Source: a virus. Taken from it: 64,000 nucleotides of DNA. The notes below the pieces were generated by a model, which had not been told where the DNA came from, searched no databases, and was given only the letters and a program-made list of their open reading frames with translations. A program made the translations under genes and the position numbers. This document shows, one piece after another, positions 173-47,019 of the stretch; the first letter of the stretch is position 1; each line of letters begins with the position of its first letter. The stretch is from positions 6,627 to 70,626 of IMG/VR virus record IMGVR_UViG_3300040944_000171. One strand, given 5' to 3'.

Positions 173-212
173 CGACCGTATCGTACCCGGCTGCGTGCAG
201 GGACGGCCACCC

Positions 213-826: not shown

Positions 827-829
827 ATC

Positions 830-2332
830 TCACGCCTGAGTGTACTGCACCGATCCGCAGGTGAACCACGTGGGGGGGCCGCCTGCGCTAGTGTCCAACT
901 CTATGTCCAGGCCCTCGCCCGCGGGCAGCGCGAGGCCCAGCGGGAAGGACTTTGTGATCGGCACGGTGGACGAGCCGGCGATAAGGCTGGCCAGGTAGAG
1001 CTGGACCGCGGCCACGAGCACGCTGGTCGCGGAGCTCCGCAGGGCGGCGAGGTAATAGCCGGCGTTGTTCGAGGCGGCCCCCAGTGTCAGGTCCACGCTC
1101 CACACCGTGATGACCTCGGTGGCGATGGCGGGCACCGGGTTAAAGACGGTATTGGCGGTCACGGTGTGGGTCAGGTTGGCCGACTGCATCAGCAGCCCCA
1201 CCGGCTGGGCCACCACCGGCTGCGTAAAGACCGGCTGCTGAGGGCTATCGCCAACGTCCACCGTGGCGTTGCCCAGCACCGCCACGACGGTGACGCCCCC
1301 GCCCGCAAGCCGACTGGTGAAGGCTACCTGGACCACCCCCGGCTCGGTCACCTGGTCTATGGGCAGGACGATCACGTCCTGTTGGGGGGCCACGTTGTTC
1401 AGGTACTCGAGTCCGGTAGTTATCCCCAGCACGTAGAGGCCGCTGATCACGCGGCCGCTGCCGTACCCGCCCCAGAAGGTGATCTTTACCGCCTGCGTGC
1501 CCGGCGGCAGGACGCAGTTGACCGCGTTGCTGCCCACACTGAGCGGGGTGATCTGGCCCACCTGTACCGGCGGCAGGTAGGTGCCCACGTTGGTCGCTCC
1601 GCCCTGGCCGCCGACGATGGTGATGTTGCCGGAGCCGATGTCCACTGAGCCGCTGGCGATGGTCACCGATCCCGAGATCGTGCCGATGTTGACCGTGCCG
1701 CTGGAGATCGCCACCGTGCCGCCGACCACGACCGTGCCGGCGGGGACGTTCTCCACCTGGACCACCTGGCCGGCGGCGATGGAGATGGAGCCGGAGATCG
1801 TCCCGACGTTGATCGTGCCGGAGCTGATCGCCACCGTGCCGCCGACCACGACCGTGCCGGCGGGGACGTTCTCCACCTGGACGACCTGATTGGCGGCGAT
1901 GGAGATGGCCCCGGCGACGGTCCCCACGTCCACCGTGCCCGAGCTGATCGCCACCGTGCCGCTGATGGTCACCGGGCCGCTGATGGTGGCGTTGACCACC
2001 GCGCCCGTGATCGAGGTGTAGCCGGTGATCGGCCCGTTGGGCGGCACCACCTCGCCCTGGTTGTAGAAGGTGACCAGGAGGCTCGCCGGCGCCCCGCTGG
2101 GGCTGGTGATGACCGGCTCCGCGCTGACCGTGACCCCCACGCTGTTCGACCAGGGAACGCTCTGCTGGGTGTAGGGGGGGATCCAGACCGTGCCGCCCTG
2201 GATCTGGGCCTGGAGGGCGTACGGCGACACATTCTGGAGCAGGACGGTGCAGGGCGGGGTCGGCACCTTGGGCGCGGGGACAGATGCGGTGCCCCCCGAG
2301 GTGAGCGCGAGGACGGGGCCGGCCAGGGACAC
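830..2332 (-). CDS. putative virion spike/turret (receptor-binding) protein
   Basis: 500 aa, V/G/T/S-rich beta protein with 40-aa repeats (GTVAISSGT..VGTISG.ISIAA.QVVQVENVPAGTVVVG). Confidence 0.6.
   Translation of the reverse strand: MSLAGPVLALTSGGTASVPAPKVPTPPCTVLLQNVSPYALQAQIQGGTVWIPPYTQQSVPWSNSVGVTVSAEPVITSPSGAPASLLVTFYNQGEVVPPNGPITGYTSITGAVVNATISGPVTISGTVAISSGTVDVGTVAGAISIAANQVVQVENVPAGTVVVGGTVAISSGTINVGTISGSISIAAGQVVQVENVPAGTVVVGGTVAISSGTVNIGTISGSVTIASGSVDIGSGNITIVGGQGGATNVGTYLPPVQVGQITPLSVGSNAVNCVLPPGTQAVKITFWGGYGSGRVISGLYVLGITTGLEYLNNVAPQQDVIVLPIDQVTEPGVVQVAFTSRLAGGGVTVVAVLGNATVDVGDSPQQPVFTQPVVAQPVGLLMQSANLTHTVTANTVFNPVPAIATEVITVWSVDLTLGAASNNAGYYLAALRSSATSVLVAAVQLYLASLIAGSSTVPITKSFPLGLALPAGEGLDIELDTSAGGPPTWFTCGSVQYTQA
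1680..1965. repeat. 120-bp tandem repeat (about 2.4 copies) in the spike gene
   Basis: GATCGCCACCGTGCCGC begins at 1706, 1826 and 1946. Confidence 0.9.
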
Positions 2333-2333
2333 C

Positions 2334-2753
2334 TCAGCCCCCCTGGCGGCGGCGGAGGAGCCCGATCAGCAGGATGAGGAGCGCGCCAGTGCCCAACCCC
2401 AGCGCCGCCGCCAACCCGGCTCCCGCGCCGCCGGAGGTCAGCTGGGCCGCCGATGGCGAGATTTGGGCCGCGTCCCTGGCGATGGCGGCGACGTACTGGG
2501 CCTGGAACTGGGCGAGGGTGAGGCAGCCGGGCAGGGTCGGGGCGTTGACCAGGGCCTGGAGCTCAGCGCTCAGCGCCCGCGCCCGATCCGCCTGGGCGGT
2601 GTCCCCCGCCGCCTCGAGGTTAGCCCCGGCGTCACCCAGGGCCTCGCTCGCGGCCGCGAGCAGCTCCATGCAGTCGCCCTCGTCCGAGGCCGACCGGGCC
2701 TGGCTGAGCAGGCTGTCAGCGACCGCGAGCGAGGCGGTGGCATCGGCCGCCAT
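2334..2753 (-). CDS. helical protein with C-terminal membrane anchor (putative virion membrane protein)
   Basis: C-terminal TM segment followed by RRRQ; similar to 49384..49923. Confidence 0.7.
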   Translation of the reverse strand: MAADATASLAVADSLLSQARSASDEGDCMELLAAASEALGDAGANLEAAGDTAQADRARALSAELQALVNAPTLPGCLTLAQFQAQYVAAIARDAAQISPSAAQLTSGGAGAGLAAALGLGTGALLILLIGLLRRRQGG

Positions 2754-2756
2754 CGC

Positions 2757-3251
2757 TCACATCAGGACCCTGGGGTCGCAGGCCGAGTATTCGACCACCC
2801 GCACGTCGATGGGGAAGCTGCCGCCGGTGGGGGCCACGATCCACACCGGCCCCACGTACCACCAGGGGAGCCAGGTCCCCTCGGCGTTGTCGCTCACCGG
2901 GATGCCCGGCATCCGGGTGGAGTCGGCCGTGGCGGTGGAGCGCACGATGTCGGCGAAGCCGTAATAGACCTTGGCGCTGGCGGTGACCACGAAGAGGCCC
3001 AGAGCCACCCGCTTGAGGTTGCGGAAGGCGACCTGGCGGGGCGTCCGCTCGGTGAGCGTGGCGGCTCGTGTCTCGCTGCCCGTGTCGTCGCTGATGGCGA
3101 AGGCGTGGCGGAGCAGGGCGACCACGTCGGCCGGCAGGCCCAACCCCGCACCGGGCGCGGAGGCCGCAGGCGCGGGGACGCCCAGTTCGCCCAACCGCCG
3201 GGCGGCGGCGGCGGGGAAGGGTGGGCGCGCCCCCGGGGGCGAGACCGTCAT
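2757..3251 (-). CDS. putative minor capsid/vertex protein
   Basis: beta-rich C-terminal ~100 aa, located between the capsid-like genes and the spike; start MTVSPP after GGAGG. Confidence 0.5.
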   Translation of the reverse strand: MTVSPPGARPPFPAAAARRLGELGVPAPAASAPGAGLGLPADVVALLRHAFAISDDTGSETRAATLTERTPRQVAFRNLKRVALGLFVVTASAKVYYGFADIVRSTATADSTRMPGIPVSDNAEGTWLPWWYVGPVWIVAPTGGSFPIDVRVVEYSACDPRVLM

Positions 3252-3261
3252 GGCCTCACGG

Positions 3262-4074
3262 TCACTGGCCGCGGGCGGCGGAGCCGGCCAGGGCCTGGAC
3301 GGGGACGGGGATGATGTCGTCCTGGGACACCCCATCGGGGATGCTGATGTTCACCCCCCCGACGATGGCGCTCCGGCCCTGGGTGCTGCCCGCCCGCCTG
3401 CGCAGGATGTAGTCGTACCCCTGCACCTCAAGGGCGACGGCGATCCCCGCCGGGGTGGCCGAGGCGCCGTTCCACTGGAGCCGGAACTGGGGAATGATGT
3501 CGTACTGCCAGAACATCTCGGTGGTCTCGGCGAAGAGGAAGCCATCGTCCACCGGGAAGGCCGCCGGCAGGCTCATGTTGGCGTCCTGGACGGGCGCAGA
3601 GATGGCGTCGGCGGGATCTGGGACCTGGTACCGCGCATTGAGCGGCGCCGTGGTCTGGGTGGTGCCCCAGTACAGGCTGGAGCCGGGGAGGTAGGCGACG
3701 AGGTCGAAGTTGTCAATCTTAGCCCCGCTGCCCGCCGCCGTGTCGATCAGGCGGAGCTTGAAGCGCGCCTGGACCATCTCGTTGACCTGGAGTTGGAAGG
3801 CGTCGGGGGCGATCAGCCCCGTCTGCTGTCCCGCCCCCAGGCTCAGGATGCTGGCCTTGGGATCGGCCTTGTACGGCGGGTACGGCGAGGAGACCGCCCA
3901 GATGACGGTGAGCCCCCCCGGCGACTCGCCCAGGGAGTTCAGCCCCCGAGCCTGGACCACGTCGTACACGGGCAGGCCGTCCCAGGTGGTCCCGTCCACC
4001 AGGATGCAGAGGTCACCCGGCTCCAGGGTGTTCCACCCTCCGCGGAAGAATCGCTCGCGTCCAGTCGATCGCAT
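3262..4074 (-). CDS. putative large capsid protein (jelly-roll-like)
   Basis: 270-aa beta-rich soluble protein with GAGG RBS, adjacent to the 197-aa capsid candidate. Confidence 0.5.
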   Translation of the reverse strand: MRSTGRERFFRGGWNTLEPGDLCILVDGTTWDGLPVYDVVQARGLNSLGESPGGLTVIWAVSSPYPPYKADPKASILSLGAGQQTGLIAPDAFQLQVNEMVQARFKLRLIDTAAGSGAKIDNFDLVAYLPGSSLYWGTTQTTAPLNARYQVPDPADAISAPVQDANMSLPAAFPVDDGFLFAETTEMFWQYDIIPQFRLQWNGASATPAGIAVALEVQGYDYILRRRAGSTQGRSAIVGGVNISIPDGVSQDDIIPVPVQALAGSAARGQ

Positions 4075-4180
4075 CGACGCTACCTCATGATCCCGGTTGA
4101 CGAGTTCCGCCAGCGCCCCGCCCGGTCAGGAGGGCGGGGGCTGGCTGGCGAACTCAGCGGATAGGGCTGCTGCCTTGTGC

Positions 4181-4774
4181 TCAGCCGGCCGCCTGGCTGG
4201 CGGGCTGGCCCGGCGCCACCGCCGGCTGGTTGACCACCGTGATCGGAGGCTCAGCGATGACCCCGACCAGCGCGTAGGTCTCGGCGTTGGCCGCCGCGAG
4301 CGTGTTGCTGGTCACGTAGGTGATCGTCGGCTTCGCGTTCGCGATGAAGTAGATGGGGTCGAAGTACCCCATCCGGCCCCGGTTGGTCGTGAACGCCCCC
4401 TCGGCGTACAGCGGGTCCAGCCGGATCTTGGCGAAGACCTGGGAGCCGGTCCCGATCCAGATCTCCTGGATCGACGGCAGGGCGGTCGCCGATGGGTACA
4501 GCACGCCGTACCCGAAGAGCACCCAGGCGGTCGCCTGGGGGACACGGGCCACAGCGGTGTCCACGGTCGGGGTGTTGGCGATGACCGCCACCCCGTTGCC
4601 GAAGACGGCCGCCTGGCTTCCGTACCAGTCGGTGGGGGTCAGCGGGCGCGTGGTCAGGTCCGCGTTGGAGGCGCCGCGCGCTGAGCTCTGGGCCACCGAG
4701 CAGGCCGTGTCCCGGAGCAGCTTCAACTGGCCCGGGTTCAGGCTCGCCTCGGGGGTGATCGCGATCAGGGTCAT
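4181..4774 (-). CDS. putative small major capsid protein (single jelly-roll-like)
   Basis: 197 aa, N-terminal helix then alternating beta strands; clear paralog at 45012..45734; followed by a GC hairpin. Confidence 0.55.
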   Translation of the reverse strand: MTLIAITPEASLNPGQLKLLRDTACSVAQSSARGASNADLTTRPLTPTDWYGSQAAVFGNGVAVIANTPTVDTAVARVPQATAWVLFGYGVLYPSATALPSIQEIWIGTGSQVFAKIRLDPLYAEGAFTTNRGRMGYFDPIYFIANAKPTITYVTSNTLAAANAETYALVGVIAEPPITVVNQPAVAPGQPASQAAG

Positions 4775-4862
4775 CTCGGATGTCCTCTAGCCCCGTTGCC
4801 GGTGAGTGCCTCTGAGATCACCGGGCGTGGGCGGTGTCGGATGGAGAAGGCGATGGCCCTGC

Positions 4863-5300
4863 TCAGAGGAGGCCGGGCTGGCTGACCTGGAGGAATGGAC
4901 GCGCGGCCGCCGGAGCCGCCAGCCCCGCCGCCCGCTCGTGACCACGGTGACCCGCGACCCGGCCGCTGGCGGGCGTCGACGGGGTGATGTACCCCGCGTT
5001 GCCGCGCTGGCCGATGGCGGTGGTGATGACCTCGGCGACGACCAGGGCGCCTCCGCCCATGAGCGACTCCGAGACGTCCGAGTGCGGCCACTCGGCGATC
5101 TGGGCGACCAGGCCGACGAGCAGCGCGCCGATGCCGACATCCAGGCCGGAGTTCTCAATGAACGAGAGCGGCGGAGTCGGCGTGCCCGTGGTGTTGGCAG
5201 GGTTGCGCTGCCAGCGGTCGGTGTCCCAGGACCGGGAGAGGCCCGTGCCGACGCCGAGCACGGCCTCGGTGCCGAGGACGGCGAATGGGAAGCGGTACAC
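4863..5300 (-). CDS. virion membrane protein (paralog of 5525..5953)
   Basis: GTG start after GGAGG; LGVGTGL...AIGQRGNAG...PGLL*. Confidence 0.65.
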   Translation of the reverse strand: MYRFPFAVLGTEAVLGVGTGLSRSWDTDRWQRNPANTTGTPTPPLSFIENSGLDVGIGALLVGLVAQIAEWPHSDVSESLMGGGALVVAEVITTAIGQRGNAGYITPSTPASGRVAGHRGHERAAGLAAPAAARPFLQVSQPGLL

Positions 5301-5429
5301 GGCCCCACGACCTCCAGATGGCGATGGCTGACATGTCGCCATGCTCTGGGAGCCGCCTCCCCGGGGGCCTCACGCTTTGGGACGGGCTTGGCCGAGACCG
5401 GATGCGCGCTCCCAAAGCGTGACGCCTGG

Positions 5430-5463
5430 ATCGTAGCCGAGGGCGGAAATCTTGTGGGAGATC
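5430..5463 (-). promoter_or_regulatory. putative late promoter GATCTCCC-N20-TACGAT
   Basis: motif shared by 7 structural-gene upstream regions. Confidence 0.65.
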
Positions 5464-5524
5464 GCCCGCATCTCCCCTCGGGGAGCCGGAGGAGGGCCGC
5501 CGACCCCCCTTGAGGGGGAAGCGC

Positions 5525-5953
5525 TCAGAGCAGCCCCGGCGCCGACCGCATGTCGCCGCCCGGGTAGGGGATGTTCTCGACCACGGGCACCGGAGGCGGC
5601 TTCACGGCCCCGCAGGCGGTGCAGCCGGCGGCCACGGCACCCTTGGGCCGCGTCACCCGCACCCCCCGGCCCCTTGCCGGGGTGATGTCGGCGGCCAGCA
5701 GGGTTCCCGCGTTGCGCTGGGCGATGGCGGGGATCACCTGGCCGGAGAGCCGGTTGGCCGCCACCGTGATGAGCCCGTAGCTGAGGTCGTCGTCCCACTC
5801 CAGGCCGAGACCCAACGCACCCACGACCAGCTCCACCAGGCGGAAGACGCCCGGGGCCTGCGCGAAGTGGGGCGCGAGCCACTCCACCACGGCACCGTCG
5901 GCCAGGCCGGTGCCCACGCCGAGCAGCGGCGGGACGAAGTCAAGCTTTCGCAT
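5525..5953 (-). CDS. virion membrane protein
   Basis: LGVGTGL...AIAQRNAG...PGLL*, contains CxxC; leaderless start. Confidence 0.7.
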   Translation of the reverse strand: MRKLDFVPPLLGVGTGLADGAVVEWLAPHFAQAPGVFRLVELVVGALGLGLEWDDDLSYGLITVAANRLSGQVIPAIAQRNAGTLLAADITPARGRGVRVTRPKGAVAAGCTACGAVKPPPVPVVENIPYPGGDMRSAPGLL

Positions 5954-5960
5954 GGCCCCG

Positions 5961-5994
5961 ATTACATCACGGCGCCGGAGCTCTGCGGGAGATC
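5961..5994 (-). promoter_or_regulatory. putative late promoter GATCTCCC-N20-TGTAAT (leaderless)
   Basis: motif begins 41 nt before the ATG at 5953. Confidence 0.65.
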
Positions 5995-6146
5995 GGCAGC
6001 CGGATCATCCCGGCATCCAGGCGCCGACCCAGCAGGGTCGGGATCCAGACCCGCGCCGCCTGGCGGACCAGGAAGTGCGCCTCGAGGGCGATCACCCCCA
6101 GCATCACGCCCGTGCCGAGGATGGCGAGATCGCGGCGGTCGATCAT
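5967..6146 (-). CDS. 59-aa membrane protein (absent from the ORF track)
   Basis: MIDRRDLAILGTGVMLGVIALEAHFL..., ATGA-coupled. Confidence 0.6.
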   Translation of the reverse strand: MIDRRDLAILGTGVMLGVIALEAHFLVRQAARVWIPTLLGRRLDAGMIRLPISRRAPAP

Positions 6147-6613
6147 GCAGCCCGGCCGAAGCCGCGCCGCCGGGACGGGGTGATCGGCGGGCCGCCGGGC
6201 GGGGCCTTGGCCTGGGGGGCGCGCTTGGTCACCTGGCCAAACCCGCCCCGGCCCGTGGTGCCGCCGCCCTCGGCGGTCACCCGCTGCTCCAGGCCGACGC
6301 CGCCCTGGCTACTGGCGGTGAAGCCGCCGGAGGCCCCGAAGGTGGGCGGGGCGGGCACGCCGATGGACTCGACCGGCGGCGGGGCCACGTCGTACCCCTC
6401 GTGCTTGGCGACCTTGGTCTCCACGATCCACCAGCCCACCCCGAGCGCCCCCACCGCCCCGGCGGCGAGCAGCCACCACTTGGTCGCCGTGGAGATGGGG
6501 CCGCTGGCGGCGGCGCTGCCGAAGCCCGAGAGCACCGACTCGATGCGCTGCTGCACGGTGGGGTCGAGCACGGCAATGGCGAAGAGGATGAGGAGGATCG
6601 CTCCGATCGGCAT
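6143..6613 (-). CDS. two-TM membrane protein
   Basis: MPIGAILLILFAIAVL...; C-terminal PPITPSRRRGFG. Confidence 0.65.
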   Translation of the reverse strand: MPIGAILLILFAIAVLDPTVQQRIESVLSGFGSAAASGPISTATKWWLLAAGAVGALGVGWWIVETKVAKHEGYDVAPPPVESIGVPAPPTFGASGGFTASSQGGVGLEQRVTAEGGGTTGRGGFGQVTKRAPQAKAPPGGPPITPSRRRGFGRAA

Positions 6614-6954
6614 CAGGGTCCAGCTCCTGCGTTGGGTCCGGGGAGATAGATGGTGATGTACCAGAAGACGATCCAGCCGGTGCCGAGGATGGTCTGGTCC
6701 TGCTCCCAGATCTCCATCTCGTTGACGGCGGTGGCCACCCCCTGCGAGATCATCTGCTCCGCCACCTGCTGCGGCTGGGGGGGCTGGCCGATGGACGAGC
6801 CGAAGATCTGCCACACCTTGATCCCGAGGCGGTCGGCGTACGCCTTCGCCGTGGGTGGCCCCTTGCCCAGGAGCTGGCTGAAGACGAGGCTCCACCCCTG
6901 GCCCGACGGTGGACGCAGCGATGCCGCCTTGCCGATGTTGAAGAGGGTCGCCAC
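6613..6954 (-). CDS. hypothetical structural-region protein
   Basis: GTG start 7 nt after a TACCCT -10 box; TGATG-coupled to the next gene. Confidence 0.55.
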   Translation of the reverse strand: MATLFNIGKAASLRPPSGQGWSLVFSQLLGKGPPTAKAYADRLGIKVWQIFGSSIGQPPQPQQVAEQMISQGVATAVNEMEIWEQDQTILGTGWIVFWYITIYLPGPNAGAGP

Positions 6955-6961
6955 GACCGCC

Positions 6962-6996
6962 AGGGTACCGCCTCCGGGTGGTGCCCTTGGGAGATC
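6962..6996 (-). promoter_or_regulatory. putative late promoter GATCTCCC-N21-TACCCT
   Basis: shared motif with the same spacing. Confidence 0.6.
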
Positions 6997-7005
6997 GGAG
7001 GTGGT

Positions 7006-7088
7006 TGGTCCGTGCCCCAGGAGTCGAACCTGGACAGCTCGCGCGGCAGGGTTACGGCCTGCTGGCCTCGCCGTTGGCCGGGACACGG
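7006..7088 (-). tRNA. atypical tRNA-Tyr(GUA)-like gene
   Basis: acceptor CCGTGTC/GGCACGG+ACCA, D stem GGCC/GGCC, anticodon arm GCAGG-CCGTAAC-CCTGC, 12-nt variable region, T arm CCAGG-TTCGACT-CCTGG; non-canonical C8 and C33. Confidence 0.7.
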
Positions 7089-7392: not shown

Positions 7393-7716
7393 CTACTGGC
7401 TCCATCCCCTTGCGCCGACATCCACACCACGGCTTACCCGGTGGGCCTTGCGCCAGGCGGCCAGGCGGTAGTGGCGGGTGCTCTCGGGGAGGCTCCGCCA
7501 CCACCAGACCACCTCCGAGAGGGCCACGGCGCAGCCCTCGCAGGTGGTGACCGAGAGCGGGATCCCCGGGGGGATGGGGTCGCCGCAGAGGGCGCAGGGT
7601 CGCTCCGCGAGCTCTTGGAAGGCGGGTCGGCGGGTCCTGCCCCGCGACACCCAGATCCCGGCCAGGATGAGCAGGAGGCCCCCCACCACGATCCAGACGG
7701 CGTCGCCCGCCGTCAT
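7393..7716 (-). CDS. membrane-anchored Zn-finger protein
   Basis: N-terminal TM plus CxxC...CxxC. Confidence 0.6.
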   Translation of the reverse strand: MTAGDAVWIVVGGLLLILAGIWVSRGRTRRPAFQELAERPCALCGDPIPPGIPLSVTTCEGCAVALSEVVWWWRSLPESTRHYRLAAWRKAHRVSRGVDVGARGWSQ

Positions 7717-9566
7717 CGGTGGAAGTCCCGGCCGGGCAGGAGGATGCCGTCCTGGCGAGCCTCGGCGGCGACGTGGACGAGGGGGATCTCAGTGTCCTTC
7801 TGGACATCGCCGCCCAGCAGCCGGGTGGTGGTGATGACCGTCTCGGGGTCGGGATGGCCGCGGTGGATGCCGAGAAAGCGCAGCGCCTCGGGCGGCCAGC
7901 GCTCCAGGATCGAGCGCTCGAAGCTGACCATGCCGAAGTCGGCGCGCTCGCTCCCCAACTCCACGCCCGTGACCACGGCCACCTCGTGGCGGGCGTGGCG
8001 GACGACGGCGTCGGGGTGGCCGGCGACGGACGGGTGCCAGAGGATCAGCCGCCGCCAGCCGGGGATGTTGAGGAAGCCTCGGATGGCGTGGGCCACCCCG
8101 GCGCCGGTCCCGGACGGGTCCATGGCGACCGCCTTGTGCCAGCCCCCGGGGGGCACCTGGACGTTGATGAGCGCTCCCACGAACCTGCTGGGCATCAGCT
8201 CACCGTCGGTGGCGATGAGGCAGCCCACCTTCGGCCCGCAGCCGTGGCTGGGCATGGGCGGCCGCCCGTCGTCGCGGAGGTGGCGGAGCGGCGGGCCGTG
8301 GACGTGCTGGGTCTCCCGGGGGACGGCGGGGTCGGGGGTGAAGCCGCTGGCGCCGAGCGTGGAGGCCTCCACGCCGGGCAGCACCAGCTGCTGGAGCCAG
8401 GCGTCGATCCGGCAGTTGTGGGAGAGGAAGCCCTCGGCGAGATAGGTGCCAGAGCTGGTCTGCATCTGGACCACGTCCTGCTCGCCAGCGGGCTCCACCG
8501 CCACCACGCGCAGCCGCTCATGGGCCTCCAGCCAGCCGAGCGCCTGGATGTCCAGCTTCGCGATGAGCCGCTCCGGTCTCACGGCGGCGAGGAAGCGCAG
8601 CCGCTCAGCGATGCCGCCGTTGATCCTGGCCACCTGCACCCGCCGACCGAGGCGTGGGCCAGCCCCGCTCGGGGCCACATGCACCCGGAAGTTGAGGCGG
8701 GTCATGGTCGCCACCGCCGCATCCAGGGTGGGGCCGGGAAGTTGGGAGAAGCTCAGATCCTGACCGCTGCGGGTCATGGAGCCCTCGCCATCGAACAGAC
8801 CGGCGAGATAGCCCGCATCCCGGGTCTCAAGCGGCGCCGTGGGGGTGAGGTACCGGTACAGAAGATCCCGCCCCGGCACCAGGTCGCGAGCCGCCCGCCA
8901 CCGCACCCGGAGCCAGCGCATCTCGCCCCGGGTCTGGGGACGGCTCCCCAGGAAGCGGTGATCCTCGGTCGCCCGCAGCTCGGTGCCGTCCTCCAGGACG
9001 ATGCGCAGCACCTTCGCTCGGGTGGTGGCGACCGCCTCCACGGTGGAGGGTACGTAGCGCCGGTACGGGCGGGCCGGGGCGTGGCTGCGCTCCTCCTCGC
9101 CAGCGATGAGTTGGTCGCCCACCCTCACCTCCCCCAGAGGACGCCAGCGCACATCTGCGGTCAGCACCCGCGCGTCGGGGGTGAGGCACCAGTGCCGGGG
9201 CTGGTGCTCGCCGTCCCAGATCTGGCCAGCGAGCTCCATGGCATCGGGGTGGCGGGCGATCAGTGCCTGGCTGAACTTGACGCAGCCCAGCCCGGGATGG
9301 CCCTCCGCCTGGCCCAGGTAGGCGACCTGGAAGGCACACCAGTCCTCGGGACAGGCGAGCAACTCATCCACAGAGCCCGGCTCGATCACCACGTCGTGCT
9401 CCACCAGCACGATCCCCGGGGTGGACGGCTGCCAGAGCCCCTCCATGAGCGCCGAGTAGTCGAAGATGGAGCCCGAGACATCGCAGCGCTCGAACGGGTG
9501 GCCGCTGGCATCCAGGCGGGCGGTGACCTCCTCGCTGAGGTGGGTGTAGGGCATCACGAAGCGCAC
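7713..9566 (-). CDS. glycosyltransferase-like protein containing an intein
   Basis: VLVEHDVV (DxD-like) and GLGCVKFS; intein CLTPDARVLTAD...SHN/C; GTG start after GGAGG. Confidence 0.75.
   Translation of the reverse strand: MRFVMPYTHLSEEVTARLDASGHPFERCDVSGSIFDYSALMEGLWQPSTPGIVLVEHDVVIEPGSVDELLACPEDWCAFQVAYLGQAEGHPGLGCVKFSQALIARHPDAMELAGQIWDGEHQPRHWCLTPDARVLTADVRWRPLGEVRVGDQLIAGEEERSHAPARPYRRYVPSTVEAVATTRAKVLRIVLEDGTELRATEDHRFLGSRPQTRGEMRWLRVRWRAARDLVPGRDLLYRYLTPTAPLETRDAGYLAGLFDGEGSMTRSGQDLSFSQLPGPTLDAAVATMTRLNFRVHVAPSGAGPRLGRRVQVARINGGIAERLRFLAAVRPERLIAKLDIQALGWLEAHERLRVVAVEPAGEQDVVQMQTSSGTYLAEGFLSHNCRIDAWLQQLVLPGVEASTLGASGFTPDPAVPRETQHVHGPPLRHLRDDGRPPMPSHGCGPKVGCLIATDGELMPSRFVGALINVQVPPGGWHKAVAMDPSGTGAGVAHAIRGFLNIPGWRRLILWHPSVAGHPDAVVRHARHEVAVVTGVELGSERADFGMVSFERSILERWPPEALRFLGIHRGHPDPETVITTTRLLGGDVQKDTEIPLVHVAAEARQDGILLPGRDFHR
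8415..9188 (-). mobile_element. intein (258 aa) with LAGLIDADG endonuclease domain
   Basis: N-terminal Cys, block B ELRATEDHRF, GYLAGLFDGEG, C-terminal HN followed by Cys+1. Confidence 0.9.
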
Positions 9567-10036
9567 GGCACAGCCTCCCTCTTGCGACGCTCCCGATCCC
9601 GCTGACACTGGCGGCAAATGCGCGTGCCGTGGGGCGGATGGTGATAGGTGTTGGCGGGGTCATAGGGGTGTCCGCGCCGACAATGGGTGATGGAGGCGAC
9701 CCAGCGGCGGCGTCCCTCCCCGATCAGGCCGCGTCTCATGTTCTCGGCGCGACTGACGGCTTCGAGATGTGCCGGATTGACACAGGATCTGCGCCGACAG
9801 AGGTGATCCAACTCCCGGCCCGCAGGCAGGGCGCCATAGGCCAATTCATACGCAACCCGGTGGGCCCGCACCATCCCGGCCCCTCGTCTGCCCGCGTTGA
9901 GCTGGCCGTAACCCTTCGTGTCGAGAGACGCCGTCCAGAGCCAGCACGGCCCTAGTTCAGGCCGCAGCGACGGGAGCGGGCCGTCCCTACTGACCTTGAG
10001 CCAGAAACGCTCCTCCAGCGTCCTCACCCGCGTCAT
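9554..10036 (-). CDS. free-standing HNH homing endonuclease
   Basis: CWLWT...GYG...AHRVAY...LDHLCRRRSCVNPAHL...EN; C-terminal THCRRGH..CRQC. Confidence 0.9.
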   Translation of the reverse strand: MTRVRTLEERFWLKVSRDGPLPSLRPELGPCWLWTASLDTKGYGQLNAGRRGAGMVRAHRVAYELAYGALPAGRELDHLCRRRSCVNPAHLEAVSRAENMRRGLIGEGRRRWVASITHCRRGHPYDPANTYHHPPHGTRICRQCQRDRERRKREAVPCAS

Positions 10037-12389: not shown

Positions 12390-12581
12390 TCACCGGCGCG
12401 GCTCGAGCGCCCAGCAGCGCCCGCAGAGGCCCCCGTCCAGGCCCATCTCGGGCAGATCCAGCGCCCGCCCGCAGCGGGGGCAGCGCGCCGCCGGGTGGCC
12501 GCCCGTGCTCCAGTCCAGGCCCACGAAGGCCACCACGCCCACCAGCACGGCCAGGACGAGGAAGGTCACCCCCGCGCTCAC
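12390..12581 (-). CDS. small membrane-anchored Zn-finger protein
   Basis: TM plus CPRC...CGRC; same architecture as 7393..7716. Confidence 0.6.
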   Translation of the reverse strand: MSAGVTFLVLAVLVGVVAFVGLDWSTGGHPAARCPRCGRALDLPEMGLDGGLCGRCWALEPRR

Positions 12582-13684
12582 TGCCCGGTCCAGCCCTCGT
12601 CCCCACCATCGACTGGCTCAGGTGGCGTGACGGGGGGCGGTGCGGGCGCCTGCCCGCCGTCCACCACCTGGAGCGGTGCCTGGGGTGGCGCGGCGCGCGG
12701 GTGGAGGGTGGACGGCTGCCCACACTGGGTGCAGGTGACCTCGGTGTCCTGCAGGCGGTGGGGCTGGATCAGGCCGCAGGTGTCGCACTGCCAGCGGCCC
12801 ATCGGCTCCCCGTCCTCGCCGACCTCGGCGCTGGCGCCCTCGCCCCGGGGACCGAGGAGGCCCTTGACCCGGTCGCCCAGCAGCAGCGCCAGCGCCGGGA
12901 CGGCGATCTGGTCGAGCTTGCCGAAGGCGCGGTCGAGCCGGTCCCGCTTGAGCTTGAACTCCTCGCGGACCTGTTCCTTCTCCCACTCCCGCTGCTCCCG
13001 CCGCTCGATCCGCTCCGCCCGCCGGTCCGCGACCTCCTCCTCGATGGAGAGCCAGCGCATGGCGTCCTCGCGGCTCATCGTCCGGACATCGGCCGCCGCC
13101 CCCGCCGCCGCGCCCTCGCCCGCCGCCGGGGTCAGCCCGAAGACATCCAGGAGGGCGTCCTTGGCCTGCTTCATCTCGGTGGCGTTGGCCGTCAGCGCCT
13201 GGATCGGCGACACCTGGGCCGCCGTGCTGCGGCCGTTCAGCAGCTCCGCGAGGCGGCCGTCCAGCCGCTCCATGCCCGCCTGGATGGTTCGGACCTGGGC
13301 GGTCTGCTGGCTCTCCGTGAAGCCCTTGATCGTCTCGGTCAGGATGCGCCGATCCTCGCGGATCCCCTCCAGCACCTGGCCCAGCATCTGGGCGATGGCG
13401 TTGCTCTGGTGATCGTCGCCGCCGCCCTCCAGGCGATCCAGCGCCTTCAGCGCCCGGGCCTCGGCCACGCGCGCCTCCAGCTGGCGGAGGCGGCGGCGGG
13501 CGCTCCGCTCCGCAGCCTCCTCCTCGGCCTCATCCTCGCGGCGCCGCTCCTCGCGGATCTCCCGCTCCGACAGCTGGCGCTCATACCCGTTCGGGGGCAC
13601 GGCGGGGGCGCCCGCCTGGGTGGCGTCCACCACCGGGAACAGCGGCCGGTCGCGCAGCCAGCGCAGGACCCTGGGCTCGCTCAT
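12578..13684 (-). CDS. coiled-coil protein with C-terminal Zn ribbon
   Basis: E/R-rich helices; CDTC...CTQC. Confidence 0.7.
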   Translation of the reverse strand: MSEPRVLRWLRDRPLFPVVDATQAGAPAVPPNGYERQLSEREIREERRREDEAEEEAAERSARRRLRQLEARVAEARALKALDRLEGGGDDHQSNAIAQMLGQVLEGIREDRRILTETIKGFTESQQTAQVRTIQAGMERLDGRLAELLNGRSTAAQVSPIQALTANATEMKQAKDALLDVFGLTPAAGEGAAAGAAADVRTMSREDAMRWLSIEEEVADRRAERIERREQREWEKEQVREEFKLKRDRLDRAFGKLDQIAVPALALLLGDRVKGLLGPRGEGASAEVGEDGEPMGRWQCDTCGLIQPHRLQDTEVTCTQCGQPSTLHPRAAPPQAPLQVVDGGQAPAPPPVTPPEPVDGGDEGWTGQ

Positions 13685-44364: not shown

Positions 44365-45012
44365 ATGGTCTCGCGGGCGCTCGGCTTCTCCCTGGGGATC
44401 ACGACCGTCCTTTTTGCGGGAGGGGCGGCGGCGGGGTTGGCCCCGCTGTCATGGTCGTGGCGGGCGCTCGCCATCGCGCTCGCCGTGGCGGGCGCGGTGC
44501 TGGGCATCGTCTGCTGGTGCTCGGAGTTCGGCTGGCCGCACCGCCGCCGCCGGGCCGAGGAGCCCACCTATGAACCCTGCGGCTGCGCCGAGTGCCGACC
44601 TCCTGCCGGCACGCTCCAGGACGGCCTCCCGGAGTTGCTGCGCGGCCACCTCGATCGCGGCTACGGCCACGAGGGTCCGGTGACGGAGGAGGCGGAGCGG
44701 GTGGCCCGCGCCCTCCTCATCCGCCACTTGAGCGATGAGCAACGGAGGAGTTTTGGAAACCACGGCTACTTCACGGTGACCCTGCCCGAGGCCTGGCGGC
44801 CCGACTTCTGGTACCGGCGCTGGCGGGTGCCCGGCCTGTACGGGCTGGCCGCGAGCCCGCTGGGCGAGGACGGCACGGCGCTGCCGTTCGCGCTCTGCGT
44901 GGTGCCCCGGGTGATCCAGCCGGAGAGTGACACCCTGCTCAGCACCAAACTGATGCTGGAGCACGATCCCGGCAGGTTCCTGCGCGTCGGCCTCGTCCAT
45001 GCCCGGCGCTGA
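44365..45012 (+). CDS. membrane protein with conserved C-terminal domain
   Basis: two TM segments; ALL.RHLSDEQ..GYFTV...LCVVP...DTLL..KLMLE.D..RFL. Confidence 0.65.
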   Translation: MVSRALGFSLGITTVLFAGGAAAGLAPLSWSWRALAIALAVAGAVLGIVCWCSEFGWPHRRRRAEEPTYEPCGCAECRPPAGTLQDGLPELLRGHLDRGYGHEGPVTEEAERVARALLIRHLSDEQRRSFGNHGYFTVTLPEAWRPDFWYRRWRVPGLYGLAASPLGEDGTALPFALCVVPRVIQPESDTLLSTKLMLEHDPGRFLRVGLVHARR

Positions 45013-45734
45013 TGGCCGCCATCATCGTCGTGCCCCGGGCCGAGGTGACCCCGCAGCAGGTGTACCAACTCCGCAACACGGCGCAGCAGCTAGCCCAGCA
45101 ACTCGCCCACGCAGCGAACGGGGGCGGGGATCTTGTGTCGCGGGCGGTGAGCCCGGCGGATCTGTTCTCCGGTGGGGGGATCGGAGGTGCGCGGGCGGTG
45201 GCGCGGCTCCGCAACCCGGTGGCGCTGCGGGCCGACACCTGGGCGCACGATGTGTACCGGGGGACCGAGGCCCAGCCTCGGGCGGCCATCGCCCTGTACG
45301 GCTATGAGGCGCTCAGCCGCTGGCCCCGGATCGACGCCATGCGTCTCGGCACCGCTGCCGTGACCTTCGCTGAGCTCCAGCTGGCCCCCCTCTACGCCTA
45401 CCCCCCCGACGAGCGCGACGAGAACGGCGTGCTCCGCTACCCGTCGCAGCGGGTCGGGTACTTCAACCCCGTCTACATCGCCCCCACCCAGCGGTTGGTC
45501 CTGTCGATGCTGGCCAGCCGGGACCTCCGCGCTGGCCGCGAGGAGTTCTGCTTCCTGGGGGTGATCTCGGAGCCGCCGATGATGGTCGCCCAGCAGCAGC
45601 CGGTGATGCCATTCGGGGCGCCGGGGTACCAGGAGGTCGCGGCCCAGCCCCGGAATCAGGGCGACCCCGACCGCCCCGGCGATGAGGCGCACTTCCGCCG
45701 CCAGCTCCGCGAGTTGGGCGGCGCGGCGGACTGA
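45012..45734 (+). CDS. paralog of the putative major capsid protein 4181..4774
   Basis: colinear motifs DLVSRAVSPAD, LYGY, LAPLYA, RVGYFNPVY, GVISEPP. Confidence 0.75.
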   Translation: MAAIIVVPRAEVTPQQVYQLRNTAQQLAQQLAHAANGGGDLVSRAVSPADLFSGGGIGGARAVARLRNPVALRADTWAHDVYRGTEAQPRAAIALYGYEALSRWPRIDAMRLGTAAVTFAELQLAPLYAYPPDERDENGVLRYPSQRVGYFNPVYIAPTQRLVLSMLASRDLRAGREEFCFLGVISEPPMMVAQQQPVMPFGAPGYQEVAAQPRNQGDPDRPGDEAHFRRQLRELGGAAD

Positions 45735-45767
45735 TCTCCCTGCGAGATCGCCTCTCGGGGGTACCAT
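45733..45767 (+). promoter_or_regulatory. putative late promoter GATCTCCC-N21-TACCAT (leaderless)
   Basis: motif begins 42 nt before the ATG at 45775. Confidence 0.65.
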
Positions 45768-45774
45768 CGGCGCG

Positions 45775-47019
45775 ATGCCCGAGTCGGCCGTCGCCCTCGC
45801 TCCGCCGCCGCCGCTTACCCCCTCCCGGGGCCGCAAGCCGGTCAACCGGCCGAGCTCCCACACGGGCGAGGAGGTGGCCTTCGGCGTGGGCGCGGGGGGC
45901 CTCGCCGCCCTGCTCGCCTGGCTGCTCTGGCCGAGGTCGCCGACCTCCCCCTCATCGTGCCCCCCGGGGCAGTACCTCCCGACGGGGGCCTCGGGGTGCG
46001 TTCAGTGCCCGTCGGGCACGGTGCGCTCCTCTGGGATGCCGATCTCGCAGTGCGTCTCCTGTCCCTCGGGCCAGCAGCCGCTCGGTGACCAGTCTGGCTG
46101 CGCGCCCATCCCGGTGCTCACGCCGATCTGCCCGCCCGCCGGGAGCATCATCGAGGACGCCTCAAGCGGCGCGCAGTACGCCGTCGACCAGGGCGGGGTG
46201 ATGCACTACATCACCTCCCCCGCCGCGCTCGCCGCCTGCGGGTACTGTGATGATCCCTCGCACGTCACCCAGGTGTCGGACGCGACCATGCAGCAGCTCC
46301 TGGCCAGTTGCGCCCAGGGCACCGACATCGACGGCCAGAGCACCTGCGTGCTGGGGCCGGCGCTCTGCCCGGTGACCCCGCAGCCGCCAGCGACCCCGGT
46401 GGGCGCCTGCGGGACAGATCCTGACAACGACCTCTCGGTGACCCCGTACTGGTGGTCGCAGGCCTCCCAGGCAACCCAGATCGCCTCCACGGTGGTCGCC
46501 ATGCTGCTCGGCCGCTGGGACTGCACCGAGCCGACCGACCAGCACTGGACCAGCATCTACAATGCCCCCTGCTGCGGCTACACGCCGCTCCAGATGGTCG
46601 CCTTCCGCATCGTCAGCGACAGCGGCCAGGAGCTGGTCAGCGACGTCCAGCACCTCGCCGACCAGTACCAGGCGGGTGGCGCCTTTGCGGGCAGCCCCAA
46701 CCCAGCAGAGGATTGCTTCATCGCCGCCGCCTTCAACATCGTCTTCAACCGCAACTGGACGGGCGCGCCAGCCTCCCTGCTGGACACCTGGCGCTCTTTC
46801 TATGAGACGCCCTGGACTGAGCCGAGCGGCGAGACCCTGTCCGGTCCCGAGCGCCTGGTGTGGCAGTTCTGCATGCAGCCCGAGTTCAGCGACCGGGTGA
46901 CCTTCAATGTCGGCAACCCGATCTCCTGCTCTCCGGGGGTCAGCGGCTGCGCGGACTATGAGCCGGCCGGGATGGTGGCCTCGGCGGCGCTGGCGGTGTC
47001 GGCGCCCGGTATCCTCTGA
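45775..47019 (+). CDS. membrane-anchored Cys-rich protein
   Basis: N-terminal TM, CPxG repeats; ends AVSAPGIL*. Confidence 0.75.
   Translation: MPESAVALAPPPPLTPSRGRKPVNRPSSHTGEEVAFGVGAGGLAALLAWLLWPRSPTSPSSCPPGQYLPTGASGCVQCPSGTVRSSGMPISQCVSCPSGQQPLGDQSGCAPIPVLTPICPPAGSIIEDASSGAQYAVDQGGVMHYITSPAALAACGYCDDPSHVTQVSDATMQQLLASCAQGTDIDGQSTCVLGPALCPVTPQPPATPVGACGTDPDNDLSVTPYWWSQASQATQIASTVVAMLLGRWDCTEPTDQHWTSIYNAPCCGYTPLQMVAFRIVSDSGQELVSDVQHLADQYQAGGAFAGSPNPAEDCFIAAAFNIVFNRNWTGAPASLLDTWRSFYETPWTEPSGETLSGPERLVWQFCMQPEFSDRVTFNVGNPISCSPGVSGCADYEPAGMVASAALAVSAPGIL

What the first reader, a model, noticed from the sequence alone, without database searches (positions are those of the whole stretch)
830..6954. 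Virion module of a large tailless, probably membrane-containing bacterial virus
Seen: small membrane proteins, then a 197-aa and a 270-aa beta-rich protein, a vertex-like protein, a TM-anchored protein and a repeat-containing spike. No terminase, portal, HK97 capsid, tape measure or FtsK/HerA-type packaging ATPase is recognisable in 64 kb. Established: paired small and large single-jelly-roll capsid proteins typify Halopanivirales, while portogloboviruses have SJR capsids, an inner membrane, a nucleoprotein core and no packaging ATPase. Inference: an undescribed lineage with a larger genome than those viruses.
Basis: inference. Interest (0 to 1): 0.8.

Follow-up and report, generated by a model that had tools for sequence, protein, structure and literature searches.

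The report
Candidate virion module, tailless peat virus
A complete 70-kb circular virus-like genome from peat has none of the genes that build tailed phages, and instead carries a conserved block of unknown genes, one with a confidently predicted capsid-type jelly-roll fold, that most likely builds a tailless, possibly membrane-containing particle.

Summary
Window 830-6954 (minus strand) encodes four small membrane proteins, a 197-aa and a 270-aa beta-rich protein, a 164-aa conserved protein, a C-terminally anchored 139-aa protein and a 500-aa protein with 40-aa repeats. All are ORFans to Pfam and PHROGs.

The window is part of a 70,626-bp record with a 127-bp terminal direct repeat (CheckV 100%). 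Six-frame HMM searches of the whole record found no HK97 capsid, terminase, portal, A32/FtsK ATPase or PRD1 capsid.

The context looks virion-like. In relatives the downstream cassette swaps receptor-binding parts: a pectate-lyase beta-helix, a LysM fusion and a CBM/YadA-like fibre.

New here: a paralogous second module, and four membrane proteins ending in a conserved S-x-[PA]-G-[LIV]-L tail.

Verdict: probably (about 0.55) the virion and adsorption module of a new tailless virus lineage. Membership in Halopanivirales or Portogloboviridae is not shown. A membrane and an icosahedral shell remain inference.

The parts
830..2332 (-). 500-aa spike / receptor-binding protein: conserved N-terminal part with 40-aa repeats, variable C-terminal domain
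   Evidence: ORF. 120-bp x 2.4 tandem repeat. Residues 1-232 are 65% identical to the L003 homolog and the C-terminal 268 aa are unrelated. Differences between near-identical genomes pile up at 1500-2100, including a repeat-unit indel. No Pfam, PHROG or PDB sequence match.
2334..2753 (-). 139-aa protein with a C-terminal membrane anchor; possible link between spike and membrane (inferred)
   Evidence: Hydrophobic segment at residues 114-132. A paralog lies at 49384-49923 (36% over 84 aa, E 2e-7). 73% identical in L003.
2757..3251 (-). 164-aa conserved protein; vertex/penton candidate (inferred)
   Evidence: Homologs in L003, L005 and L004 (56%, 44%, 32%). The L006 homolog carries a C-terminal LysM domain (Pfam 3e-10). 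No family match of its own.
3262..4074 (-). 270-aa jelly-roll protein; candidate large major capsid protein
4181..4774 (-). 197-aa beta-rich protein; candidate small capsid protein or capsid-membrane adaptor
4863..5342 (-). 159-aa membrane protein ending in SQPGLL
   Evidence: Hydrophobic segment at residues 65-83. C-terminal motif kept in L003, L005 and L008 orthologs.
5525..5953 (-). 142-aa protein (weak hydrophobic segment) ending in SAPGLL
   Evidence: 89% identical in L003 and 30% in L005.
5967..6146 (-). 59-aa single-pass membrane protein
   Evidence: ORF. Hydrophobic peak at residues 7-27. Its conservation was not tested separately.
6143..6613 (-). 156-aa membrane protein (start ATG at 6613)
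   Evidence: Start and hydrophobic peaks. This frame is supported by tblastx to L005 2123-2377 (35% over 85 aa).
6613..6954 (-). 113-aa conserved protein of unknown role
   Evidence: GTG start at 6954, downstream of the tRNA. 35% identical over 89 aa in L005.
7006..7088 (-). tRNA-Tyr (GTA) inside the module
   Evidence: ARAGORN.
7393..7716 (-). 107-aa protein with N-terminal membrane segment and Cys pairs
   Evidence: Hydrophobic segment at residues 6-24. Only sub-threshold Pfam hits.
7713..9617 (-). 634-aa conserved protein interrupted by an intein of about 257 aa with a LAGLIDADG-type motif; the extein is possibly a GT-A-like glycosyltransferase
   Evidence: The L005 ortholog (341 aa) is continuous across HW|CRIDAW. 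Weak Hint/intein Pfam hits. Atlas look-alikes of the intein-free ortholog are phage clusters, one Anp1-like; this is a lead only.
12578..13684 (-). 368-aa charged coiled-coil protein with a C-terminal Cys4 ribbon; first gene of the block shared with L005; scaffold or DNA-condensing role is inferred
   Evidence: Sequence. 33% identical over 175 aa at the start of L005. No family match.
45012..45734 (+). 240-aa paralog of the 197-aa protein (second module)
   Evidence: BLASTP 33% identity, E 2e-25. hhalign probability 100% to profile A7, which contains this sequence as one of its 11 rows, so that value is not independent. 76% identical in G002.
45682..47019 (+). 445-aa Cys-rich membrane protein ending in SAPGIL
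   Evidence: A Cys-rich protein with the same kind of tail lies next to the 159-aa homolog in L008.
47023..47424 (+). 133-aa membrane protein ending in SAPGIL
49384..49923 (+). 179-aa paralog of the 139-aa anchored protein, with a C-terminal membrane segment

Best explanation
Window 830-6954, with the genes up to about 13.7 kb and a paralogous set at 44.3-50 kb, is the virion-building and host-attachment module of a complete 70.5-kb dsDNA virus that is not a tailed phage.

Proposed working (inferred unless marked shown):
- The 270-aa jelly-roll protein (fold shown) forms the capsomers of a protein shell. The 197-aa beta protein encoded directly upstream takes part too, either as a second capsid protein or as an adaptor.
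- The small membrane proteins sit in an internal lipid layer.
- Four of them carry a conserved extreme C-terminal S-x-[PA]-G-[LIV]-L peptide (shown). This peptide may dock them to the shell. Each 197-aa-type paralog is encoded next to two such proteins (shown).
- The 164-aa protein, the anchored 139-aa protein and the 500-aa repeat protein form a vertex and receptor-binding complex. The outer, variable part of this complex is exchanged between relatives (exchange shown).
- No P-loop packaging motor is encoded apart from a generic AAA+ protein (shown). DNA is therefore more likely enclosed during assembly, as proposed for SPV1, than pumped into a preformed shell.
For: 1. Genome. Single record of 70,626 bp whose first 127 bp equal its last 127 bp. 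It is classed as direct terminal repeats with CheckV completeness 100. It carries a D5-type primase-helicase, DUF5131, HNH endonucleases, an intein, three DNA methyltransferases, an RNA ligase and two tRNAs.

2. No tailed-phage or PRD1-type hallmark.
- 0 matches at E <= 1 for 8 of 8 families searched in six frames, while the controls rang.
- 0 of 3 families in the 60-kb relative G002.
- No ORF of unknown function over 450 aa except the spike and an SLT-domain protein.

3. The 270-aa protein.
- AF2 pLDDT 87.5, pTM 0.85.

4. Family behaviour.
- 61 clusters at E <= 1e-3 in 1.84 billion representatives, 53 of 61 being 252-293 aa long.
- No match in 50,697 phage records. Only chance-level matches in plasmids: best E 0.03, at most 34% of the query covered.

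5. Conserved order in relatives at about 50% identity: 368-aa, intein-host protein, 113-aa, 142-aa, 159-aa, 197-aa, 270-aa, 164-aa homologs in L005. The 197-aa and 270-aa genes are among the best conserved of the block (93% and 85% against L003) and are under purifying selection.

6. Host-attachment cassette.
- The spike's N-terminal 232 aa are conserved and its C-terminal domain is replaced.
- L005 has a pectate-lyase-like beta-helix protein at this place (PF12708, 4.8e-17).
- The L006 homolog of the 164-aa protein is fused to LysM (3e-10).
- L003 adds a protein with CBM_5_12 and a YadA-stalk-like part.
- Differences between near-identical genomes concentrate in the spike repeats.

7. Membrane proteins and tail motif. 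In the six-frame scan of the whole genome exactly four ORFs, and no others, end in PG[LI]L. All four are predicted membrane proteins (three clear hydrophobic segments, one weak) and each lies next to a 197-aa-type gene. The tail is kept in L003, L005 and, as AGVL, in L008.
Against: - Foldseek found nothing at E <= 0.001 in the PDB or BFVD.
- There is no profile similarity to P23-77 VP16 or VP17, nor between the 197-aa and 270-aa families.
- The 197-aa model is unreliable (pLDDT 55.6).
- No packaging ATPase of the kind that accompanies the capsid genes in Halopanivirales is present.
- A 70-kb genome is far above anything known for such virions.
- No particle, lipid or proteome data exist. None of the 24 listed sequencing runs that hold the stretch is identified as a particle-enriched virome.
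- Several other ORFans of 280-350 aa (20010-20984, 21088-21939, 38096-39148, 59659-60687) were not folded and could be the true shell protein.
- The PHROG screens of 84 ORFs showed only the first 25 of 40 and of 37 families, so weak structural hits could be hidden there.
Confidence: 0.55

Rival explanations
1. It is a virion module, but the 270-aa and 197-aa beta-sandwich proteins are not the shell. They would be vertex, spike-base or membrane-associated proteins. The particle is then either pleomorphic and enveloped without an icosahedral shell, or built from another unfolded ORFan elsewhere in the genome.
For: The jelly-roll matches are generic, and carbohydrate-binding modules, phage baseplate and fibre domains score as well as capsid proteins. 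The genes lie directly next to an adsorption cassette. A paralog of the 197-aa protein sits beside Cys-rich membrane proteins. No packaging ATPase is present. Four ORFans of 280-350 aa were never folded.
Against: The very narrow length range of the 270-aa family (53 of 61 clusters at 252-293 aa) and its high conservation relative to the neighbouring spike genes fit a lattice-forming protein better than a receptor-binding one. The top-ranked structural neighbours are shell proteins aligned over most of their length: SPV1 with 149 of 178 residues. No other ORF matched profile A4 of the 270-aa family.
Confidence: 0.2
2. The element is not a virus but a plasmid-like replicon. The block would encode a glycosylated cell-surface structure (fibre, pilus-like or adhesin complex) built from jelly-roll subunits and membrane anchors.
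For: Ena endospore-appendage pilins, archaeal cannulae and tube proteins appear among the structural matches of both models. Three glycosyltransferase-type genes and an epimerase lie in or near the modules. LysM, CBM and YadA-like parts are also common in cell-surface proteins. A serine recombinase of the resolvase type and an IS1-type transposase family are present.
Against: No conjugation, partition or plasmid-replication family appeared in Pfam screens of 94 ORFs. The gene content is phage-like: D5 primase-helicase, DUF5131, homing HNH, intein, tRNAs, multiple methyltransferases. The 270-aa protein has no real match in 72,556 plasmid records. Its family was found in 1 of 401 genomes sampled from the phylum of the one MAG that holds it, and there only on short, wholly element-derived contigs.
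Confidence: 0.12
3. It is a very divergent tailed phage whose HK97 capsid, portal, terminase and tail genes escape profile searches. The block would then be its tail-fibre or baseplate region.
For: The spike cassette has the N-conserved, C-variable architecture and the beta-helix depolymerase typical of tailed-phage receptor-binding proteins. The Atlas look-alikes of one module protein are clusters from tailed phages.
Against: 0 of 8 hallmark families were found at E <= 1 in six frames of a genome rated 100% complete. Only two canonical P-loop proteins exist, neither terminase-like. There is no unassigned ORF long enough for a typical large terminase, portal or tape measure.
Confidence: 0.05

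Closest known systems
Portogloboviridae (Sulfolobus polyhedral virus 1)
   Different: SPV1 has 20 kb and 45 short ORFs and infects hyperthermophilic archaea. This genome has 70.5 kb, comes from peat and co-bins with a bacterial MAG. Sequence identity in the structural alignment is 5-6%. No counterpart of the SPV1 nucleoprotein was sought or found. This genome has its own replication genes, which SPV1 lacks.
Halopanivirales (Sphaerolipoviridae, Simuloviridae, Matshushitaviridae; e.g. HCIV-1, SH1, P23-77)
   Different: No FtsK/HerA-A32 type ATPase, which lies just upstream of the capsid genes in P23-77. No profile similarity to VP16/VP17 (hhalign probability 0.1-0.2%). The genome is 2-4 times larger. 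The fold of the small protein is unconfirmed, and pairing of the two proteins is not shown.
PRD1-type double jelly-roll viruses (Tectiviridae, Corticoviridae, Autolykiviridae)
   Same: Tailless architecture with an inner membrane and vertex spikes is the same general kind. Single jelly-roll domains of D13 and PR772 P3 appear among weak matches.
   Different: The 270-aa model aligns to one jelly roll only. There is no match to the PRD1 P3 family and no A32-like ATPase. Prokaryotic members have genomes under 20 kb (passage of PMC8812541).
Receptor-binding proteins of tailed phages (tailspike depolymerases, fibres)
   Same: The cassette downstream of the jelly-roll genes behaves the same way: a conserved N-terminal anchor, exchangeable distal domains, a pectate-lyase beta-helix in one relative, and repeat-number variation.
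   Different: No tail, baseplate or tape-measure gene to attach them to was detected.

Membership tests
Halopanivirales (Helvetiavirae) | Two major capsid proteins, each a single jelly roll standing vertically, forming homo- and heterodimers in pseudo-hexameric capsomers | tested here: inconclusive
Halopanivirales (Helvetiavirae) | FtsK/HerA-superfamily (A32-like) genome-packaging ATPase encoded next to the capsid genes | tested here: not met
   0 matches to Pox_A32 and FtsK_SpoIIIE at E <= 1 in six frames. The only canonical Walker A proteins are the primase-helicase and an AAA+ protein of the classical AAA/MCM/RuvB kind, 45 kb away.
Halopanivirales (Helvetiavirae) | Detectable sequence or profile relationship to known small and large capsid proteins | tested here: not met
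   hhalign of A4 against VP17 and of A7 against VP16: probability 0.2% and 0.1%. Only the single sequences of P23-77 were compared, not family profiles.
Halopanivirales (Helvetiavirae) | Internal lipid membrane in the virion | not testable with these tools
   Only the presence of at least six predicted membrane-protein genes in the block is shown.
Portogloboviridae | Single jelly-roll capsid protein forming hexameric capsomers, plus a jelly-roll penton protein | tested here: inconclusive
Portogloboviridae | No packaging ATPase; circular dsDNA condensed as a nucleoprotein core | tested here: inconclusive
   Absence of an ATPase and a circular-type assembly are met. A nucleoprotein was not identified; the 368-aa coiled-coil and zinc-ribbon protein is only a guess.
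Portogloboviridae | Genome of about 20 kb, hyperthermophilic archaeal host | tested here: not met
   70.5 kb. Found in peat and wetland metagenomes. A near-identical fragment is binned with a Candidatus Dormibacteria MAG. Binning is weak evidence of the host.
Caudoviricetes (tailed phages) | HK97-fold major capsid protein, portal protein and large terminase | tested here: inconclusive
   0 matches for Phage_capsid, Phage_portal, SPP1_portal, Terminase_6N and TerL_ATPase at E <= 1 in a genome rated 100% complete. No ORF of suitable size is left. ORFans were not all folded, so a fold-level test is missing.
Tectiviridae-like double jelly-roll viruses | [quoted passage not shown] | tested here: inconclusive
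   No PRD1 P3 family match and no A32 match. The 270-aa model aligns to one barrel of DJR proteins only. Other ORFans were not folded.

The most novel reading that the evidence does not exclude
This is the first sighting of a bacterial lineage of large (70 kb) tailless viruses whose shell is built from jelly-roll proteins of the SPV1/Helvetiavirae structural class and which encloses its DNA without any P-loop packaging motor.

Inner-membrane proteins would be tethered to the shell through a dedicated C-terminal S-x-[PA]-G-[LIV]-L docking peptide. That peptide would be read by two paralogous 197-aa-type adaptor proteins.

This would place an SPV1-like, ATPase-less state, so far known from one archaeal family, in bacteria, at 3-4 times the genome size.
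Probability: 0.3. Interest if true: 0.85.

Novelty: new variant of a known kind. Interest (0 to 1): 0.72.

Why it matters
Known tailless, membrane-containing prokaryotic viruses have genomes of about 10-31 kb. Those built from single jelly-roll capsid proteins are known only from halophilic archaea, Thermus and Sulfolobales.

A complete 70-kb genome from peat has a conserved, family-less module of this architectural kind and no packaging ATPase. If the reading is right, it would widen the host range, the size range and the assembly modes of that class. It would also bear on the debated origin of the Helvetiavirae and SPV1 capsid proteins.

Practical point: such genomes are invisible to hallmark-based virus classification. 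The 270-aa family (61 clusters) gives a marker to find more.

The conserved C-terminal tail on four membrane proteins is a concrete, testable handle on how an inner membrane could be coupled to a shell.

Tried and rejected
- Complex prediction of the 270-aa (A4) with the 197-aa (A7) protein: 'no answer', score 0.00 in both runs, controls not run. This is evidence neither way.
- Foldseek of the 270-aa model against the PDB and BFVD: 0 matches at E <= 0.001. The weak rows were furin P-domains, enterovirus VP1 and assorted phage proteins.
- Profile search of A4 against PDB sequences: best E 0.38, antibody chains, meaningless.
- hhalign of A4 against VP17, A7 against VP16, and A4 against A7: probabilities 0.1-0.2%.
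- hhalign of A4 and A7 against all 101 called ORFs: only the proteins themselves and the known paralog matched. There was one marginal 25% hit to 58172-58651.
- ESM Atlas for the 270-aa protein: no usable hit and no model.
- Searches for more distant loci:
  - Single proteins P0015 and P0033 found nothing in viral contigs.
- Pfam or PHROGs on 20 further ORFs gave no structural family.
- Promoter and terminator scan of 1-10,000: 0 sites of either kind.
- Sequencing runs: 24 listed holders, all peat or wetland metagenomes kept as contigs, and no RNA holder listed. Nothing can be said on expression or on particle enrichment.
- SPV1 record KY780159 is not in the phage collection. The SPV1 structure paper PMC6842630 is not held.
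- Literature: 5 searches listed no paper describing this lineage. Only listings and abstracts were seen, apart from PMC8459092 (whole text) and PMC8812541 (passages). Supplements are closed and were not needed.
- Considered and dropped: the AAA+ protein at 50509-51525 as a packaging motor of the FtsK/HerA kind. Its matches are AAA_5, classical AAA, MCM and RuvB. A role in assembly is not excluded.

Full report
**What the window is.** The window is bases 6627-70626 of a single record of 70,626 bp. The first 127 bp of the record are identical to its last 127 bp, and the identity stops at base 128. The collection classes the record as having direct terminal repeats, with a CheckV completeness of 100. 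The genome is therefore complete. It is either circular or terminally redundant, with about 70.5 kb of unique sequence. G+C is about 72%, apart from an island of 61-65% at 16-20 kb.

**Check of the observation.**
- All have the codon-position G+C pattern of real genes in a high-GC genome, with GC3 of 0.82-0.96.
- The 500-aa ORF (830-2332) holds a 120-bp unit repeated 2.4 times, i.e. 40-aa repeats, plus shorter 18-bp repeats.
- The 139-aa ORF has one C-terminal hydrophobic segment.
- The 164-aa ORF starts at an ATG 10 nt after the stop of the 270-aa gene.
- Upstream lie four small proteins with hydrophobic segments: 4863-5342, 5525-5953, 5967-6146 and 6143-6613. The frame of the last is supported by similarity to a distant relative.
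- Against a relative with 85-93% identical proteins, four genes of the block give dN/dS of 0.19-0.36.
- None of the ten ORFs between 830 and 9617 reaches a Pfam or PHROG threshold.

**Absence of tailed-phage and packaging genes.**
- I screened 94 ORFs with Pfam and PHROGs. For PHROGs only the first 25 of 40 and of 37 families were displayed.
- I re-examined 30 ORFs (one from locus L005) singly.
- The families found were:
  - a D5-type primase-helicase;
  - a resolvase-type recombinase;
  - three DNA methyltransferases;
  - DUF5131;
  - HNH endonucleases;
  - an RNA ligase;
  - an epimerase;
  - two clear glycosyltransferases;
  - an IS1-type transposase;
  - an SLT_3 lysozyme-like domain (36431-38047);
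  - one AAA+ ATPase (50509-51525).
- Six-frame searches of the whole record with Phage_capsid, Terminase_6N, TerL_ATPase, Phage_portal, SPP1_portal, Pox_A32, FtsK_SpoIIIE and the PRD1 P3 family gave 0 matches at E <= 1, while the control genomes rang.
- The 60-kb relative was negative for the three families tried.
- A six-frame scan finds only two ORFs with a canonical Walker A motif, the primase-helicase and the AAA+ protein. The AAA+ protein matches classical AAA, MCM and RuvB proteins, not FtsK/HerA.
- No unassigned ORF is long enough for a typical large terminase, portal or tape measure.

**The 270-aa protein.**
- It has 8 relatives in 5.8 billion clustered proteins.
- A profile search finds 61 clusters in 1.84 billion representatives, and 53 of the 61 are 252-293 aa long.
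- With a 60-sequence alignment, AlphaFold2 gives pLDDT 87.5 and pTM 0.85, an all-beta protein of 13 strands.
- Foldseek finds nothing at E <= 0.001 in the PDB or BFVD.

|---|---|---|---|
| 6h9c_Z | HCIV-1 | 6.0 | 119 residues, rmsd 3.4 |
| 6oj0_T | SPV1 | 5.8 | 153 of 178 residues |
| 3zmn_A | P23-77 VP17 | 5.5 | 128 residues |
| 6h82_b | HHIV-2 | 4.5 | 118 residues |

- The scores lie in the range where the tool itself warns that only a common arrangement may be shared. Cellular jelly rolls follow within one Z unit.
- There is no profile similarity to VP17.

**The 197-aa protein.**
- Relatives are few.
- The model from 11 sequences is poor: pLDDT 55.6, pTM 0.58. It shows an N-terminal helix and eight strands.
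- It shows no similarity to VP16 or to the 270-aa family.
- It is the most conserved gene of the block, at 93% against the 60-kb relative.
- It precedes the 270-aa gene in every related locus that reaches that far: L003, L005, L006 and L008.
- It has a 240-aa paralog elsewhere in the genome, at 45012-45734 (33% identity, E 2e-25).

**Comparative context.**
- Relatives found:
  - a 19.9-kb contig of a Candidatus Dormibacteria MAG that is 98.9% identical in DNA over the 14-kb aligned stretch (270-aa protein 100% identical) and is wholly element-derived;
  - a 60-kb IMG/VR record;
  - five short metagenome contigs with proteins at about 50% identity.
- The 7.6-kb contig L005 keeps the order 368-aa protein, intein-host protein (without intein), 113-aa, 142-aa, 159-aa, 197-aa, 270-aa and 164-aa homologs.
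- Downstream of the jelly-roll genes the content changes between relatives in the manner of receptor-binding cassettes:
  - L005 inserts a 455-aa pectate-lyase-like right-handed beta-helix protein (PF12708, 4.8e-17).
  - The L006 homolog of the 164-aa protein ends in a LysM domain (3e-10).
  - L003 adds a 604-aa protein with CBM_5_12 and a YadA-stalk-like segment.
  - The spike keeps its first 232 residues (65% identity) but has an unrelated C-terminal domain in L003.
  - Between near-identical genomes the differences cluster in the spike repeats, including loss of one repeat unit.
- This is the strongest contextual argument that the block makes an extracellular, host-binding particle.
- The 270-aa family was found in 1 of 401 genomes sampled from the MAG's phylum. 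It was found in none of 50,697 phage records, and only at chance level in 72,556 plasmid records.
- The stretch 830-7000 is held by 24 listed peat or wetland metagenome runs.

1. A second module at 44.3-50 kb holds the following:
   - a two-pass membrane protein;
   - the 197-aa paralog;
   - a 445-aa Cys-rich membrane protein;
   - a 133-aa membrane protein;
   - a paralog of the anchored 139-aa protein.

   The AAA+ ATPase follows at 50509-51525. Most of this module (the five proteins above and the AAA+ ATPase) is conserved in the 60-kb relative.
2. Exactly four ORFs in the six-frame translation of the genome end in PG[LI]L: SQPGLL, SAPGLL and SAPGIL twice. They are the two membrane proteins just upstream of the 197-aa gene and the two just downstream of its paralog.
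   - The tail is kept in orthologs at 30-40% identity. In L008 it reads SLAGVL and SVAGVL.
   - I read this as a docking or sorting peptide. A plausible partner is the adjacent 197-aa-type protein, which would make that protein an adaptor between membrane and shell. This is inference.
3. The 634-aa protein at the head of the block contains an intein of about 257 aa with a LAGLIDADG-type motif. The 341-aa ortholog in L005 lacks it. Language-model look-alikes of the intein-free form are phage proteins, one cluster being Anp1-like glycosyltransferases; this is a lead only.
4. An HNH gene, a GT2 gene and a DXD sugar-transferase gene follow at 9554-11926.

**How it most likely works.**
Shown:
- a complete virus-type genome without tailed-phage, PRD1-type or FtsK-type genes;
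- a conserved block with one confident jelly-roll protein, its constant 197-aa partner gene, at least six membrane-protein genes, and a modular host-binding cassette.

Inferred:
- The 270-aa protein forms the capsomers.
- The 197-aa protein is a second shell protein or a membrane-shell adaptor.
- The membrane proteins form an inner lipid layer coupled to the shell through the conserved tail.
- The 164-aa, 139-aa and 500-aa proteins form the vertex and spike complex.
- DNA is enclosed during assembly rather than pumped, since no packaging motor is encoded. This is what has been proposed for SPV1 (passages of PMC8812541; ICTV profile).
- The charged coiled-coil and zinc-ribbon protein at 12578-13684 is a candidate scaffold or DNA-condensing protein.

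I give this reading about 0.55.

**Rivals.**
- A virion module whose shell is made by something else, or that has no shell at all: 0.2.
- A plasmid-like element encoding a glycosylated surface structure: 0.12.
- A very divergent tailed phage: 0.05.

**Comparison with known families.**
- It works most like Portogloboviridae (no ATPase, circular DNA, best structural match) and like Halopanivirales (small-large gene pair).
- It fails a defining feature of each:
  - Halopanivirales: there is no A32-like ATPase and no profile similarity.
- I therefore do not file it in either.
- Five literature searches listed no description of such a lineage.
- I rate it a new variant of a known kind: a tailless jelly-roll virus with an inner membrane, in a new host group, at a new size, and with protein families that have no detectable relatives among described viruses.

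**Limits.**
- The neighbourhoods of the more distant family members could not be fetched.
- No particle, lipid, expression or proteome evidence exists.

Noticed in passing
window 4863-5342, 5525-5953 (-), 45682-47019, 47023-47424 (+); L003, L005, L008 orthologs: Four membrane proteins, and no other ORF in six frames, end in [SQ]-x-PG-[LI]-L-stop. The tail is kept in orthologs at 30-40% identity and reads S-x-AGVL in L008. Each pair lies next to a 197-aa-type gene. The function is unknown.
   Followed up: partly
window 44365-51525 (+): A second, paralogous 'structural-like' module: a 2-TM protein, a 240-aa paralog of the 197-aa protein, a 445-aa Cys-rich membrane protein, a 133-aa membrane protein, a paralog of the 139-aa anchored protein, then an AAA+ ATPase (AAA_5, AAA and MCM-like hits). 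Most of it (six of eight called genes, including these) is conserved in the 60-kb relative G002.
   Followed up: partly
window 7713-9617 (-): An intein of about 257 aa with a LAGLIDADG-type motif, inserted before the Cys of HW|CRIDAW in a conserved protein of unknown family. The ortholog in L005 has no intein. The intein is also present in the 60-kb relative (85% identity over 617 aa).
   Followed up: partly
window 7006-7088 (-) and 49206-49280 (+): Two tRNA genes, Tyr (GTA) and Pro (CGG). The first lies inside the morphogenetic block and overlaps the longest reading of ORF 6613-7122.
   Followed up: no
window 16000-20000: A low-GC island (61-65% against about 72%) with a D12-class adenine methyltransferase (16098-17069), a 448-aa ORF and a 332-aa ORF. 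It is absent from the 60-kb relative. An IS1-type transposase family was hit somewhere in ORF set A1 but I did not map it. This may be an acquired restriction-modification or insertion element.
   Followed up: no
window 9554-11926 (-) and 43230-44114 (+): A homing-type HNH endonuclease lies between glycosyltransferase genes (GT2 at 10033-11331, DXD sugar-binding type at 11297-11926). An NAD-dependent sugar epimerase lies next to the second module. This suggests glycosylation of virion or host surface components.
   Followed up: no
window 36431-38047 (+): A 538-aa ORF with an SLT_3 lysozyme-like domain at residues 256-351. It is a candidate lysis or virion-associated cell-wall enzyme. Its frame overlaps other candidate ORFs and was not verified.
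   Followed up: no
window 32951-33850 and 50509-51525 (+): A 299-aa protein shares 43% identity over 77 aa with the C-terminal part of the AAA+ ATPase. It also has a weak hit to a domain of MoxR-vWA-beta-propeller systems (E 0.037).
   Followed up: no
G001 contig C32 (L011 1-669): The same Candidatus Dormibacteria MAG holds a second, more divergent copy of the 270-aa family at a contig end (E 1.6e-49). Two related elements are therefore binned with one genome.
   Followed up: no
L001 4740-5390 (+), outside the window: A 216-aa ORFan with very strong codon bias (GC3 0.93). It is 88% identical in the 60-kb relative and has no Pfam or PHROG match. It is among the best-conserved genes of the element.
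   Followed up: no
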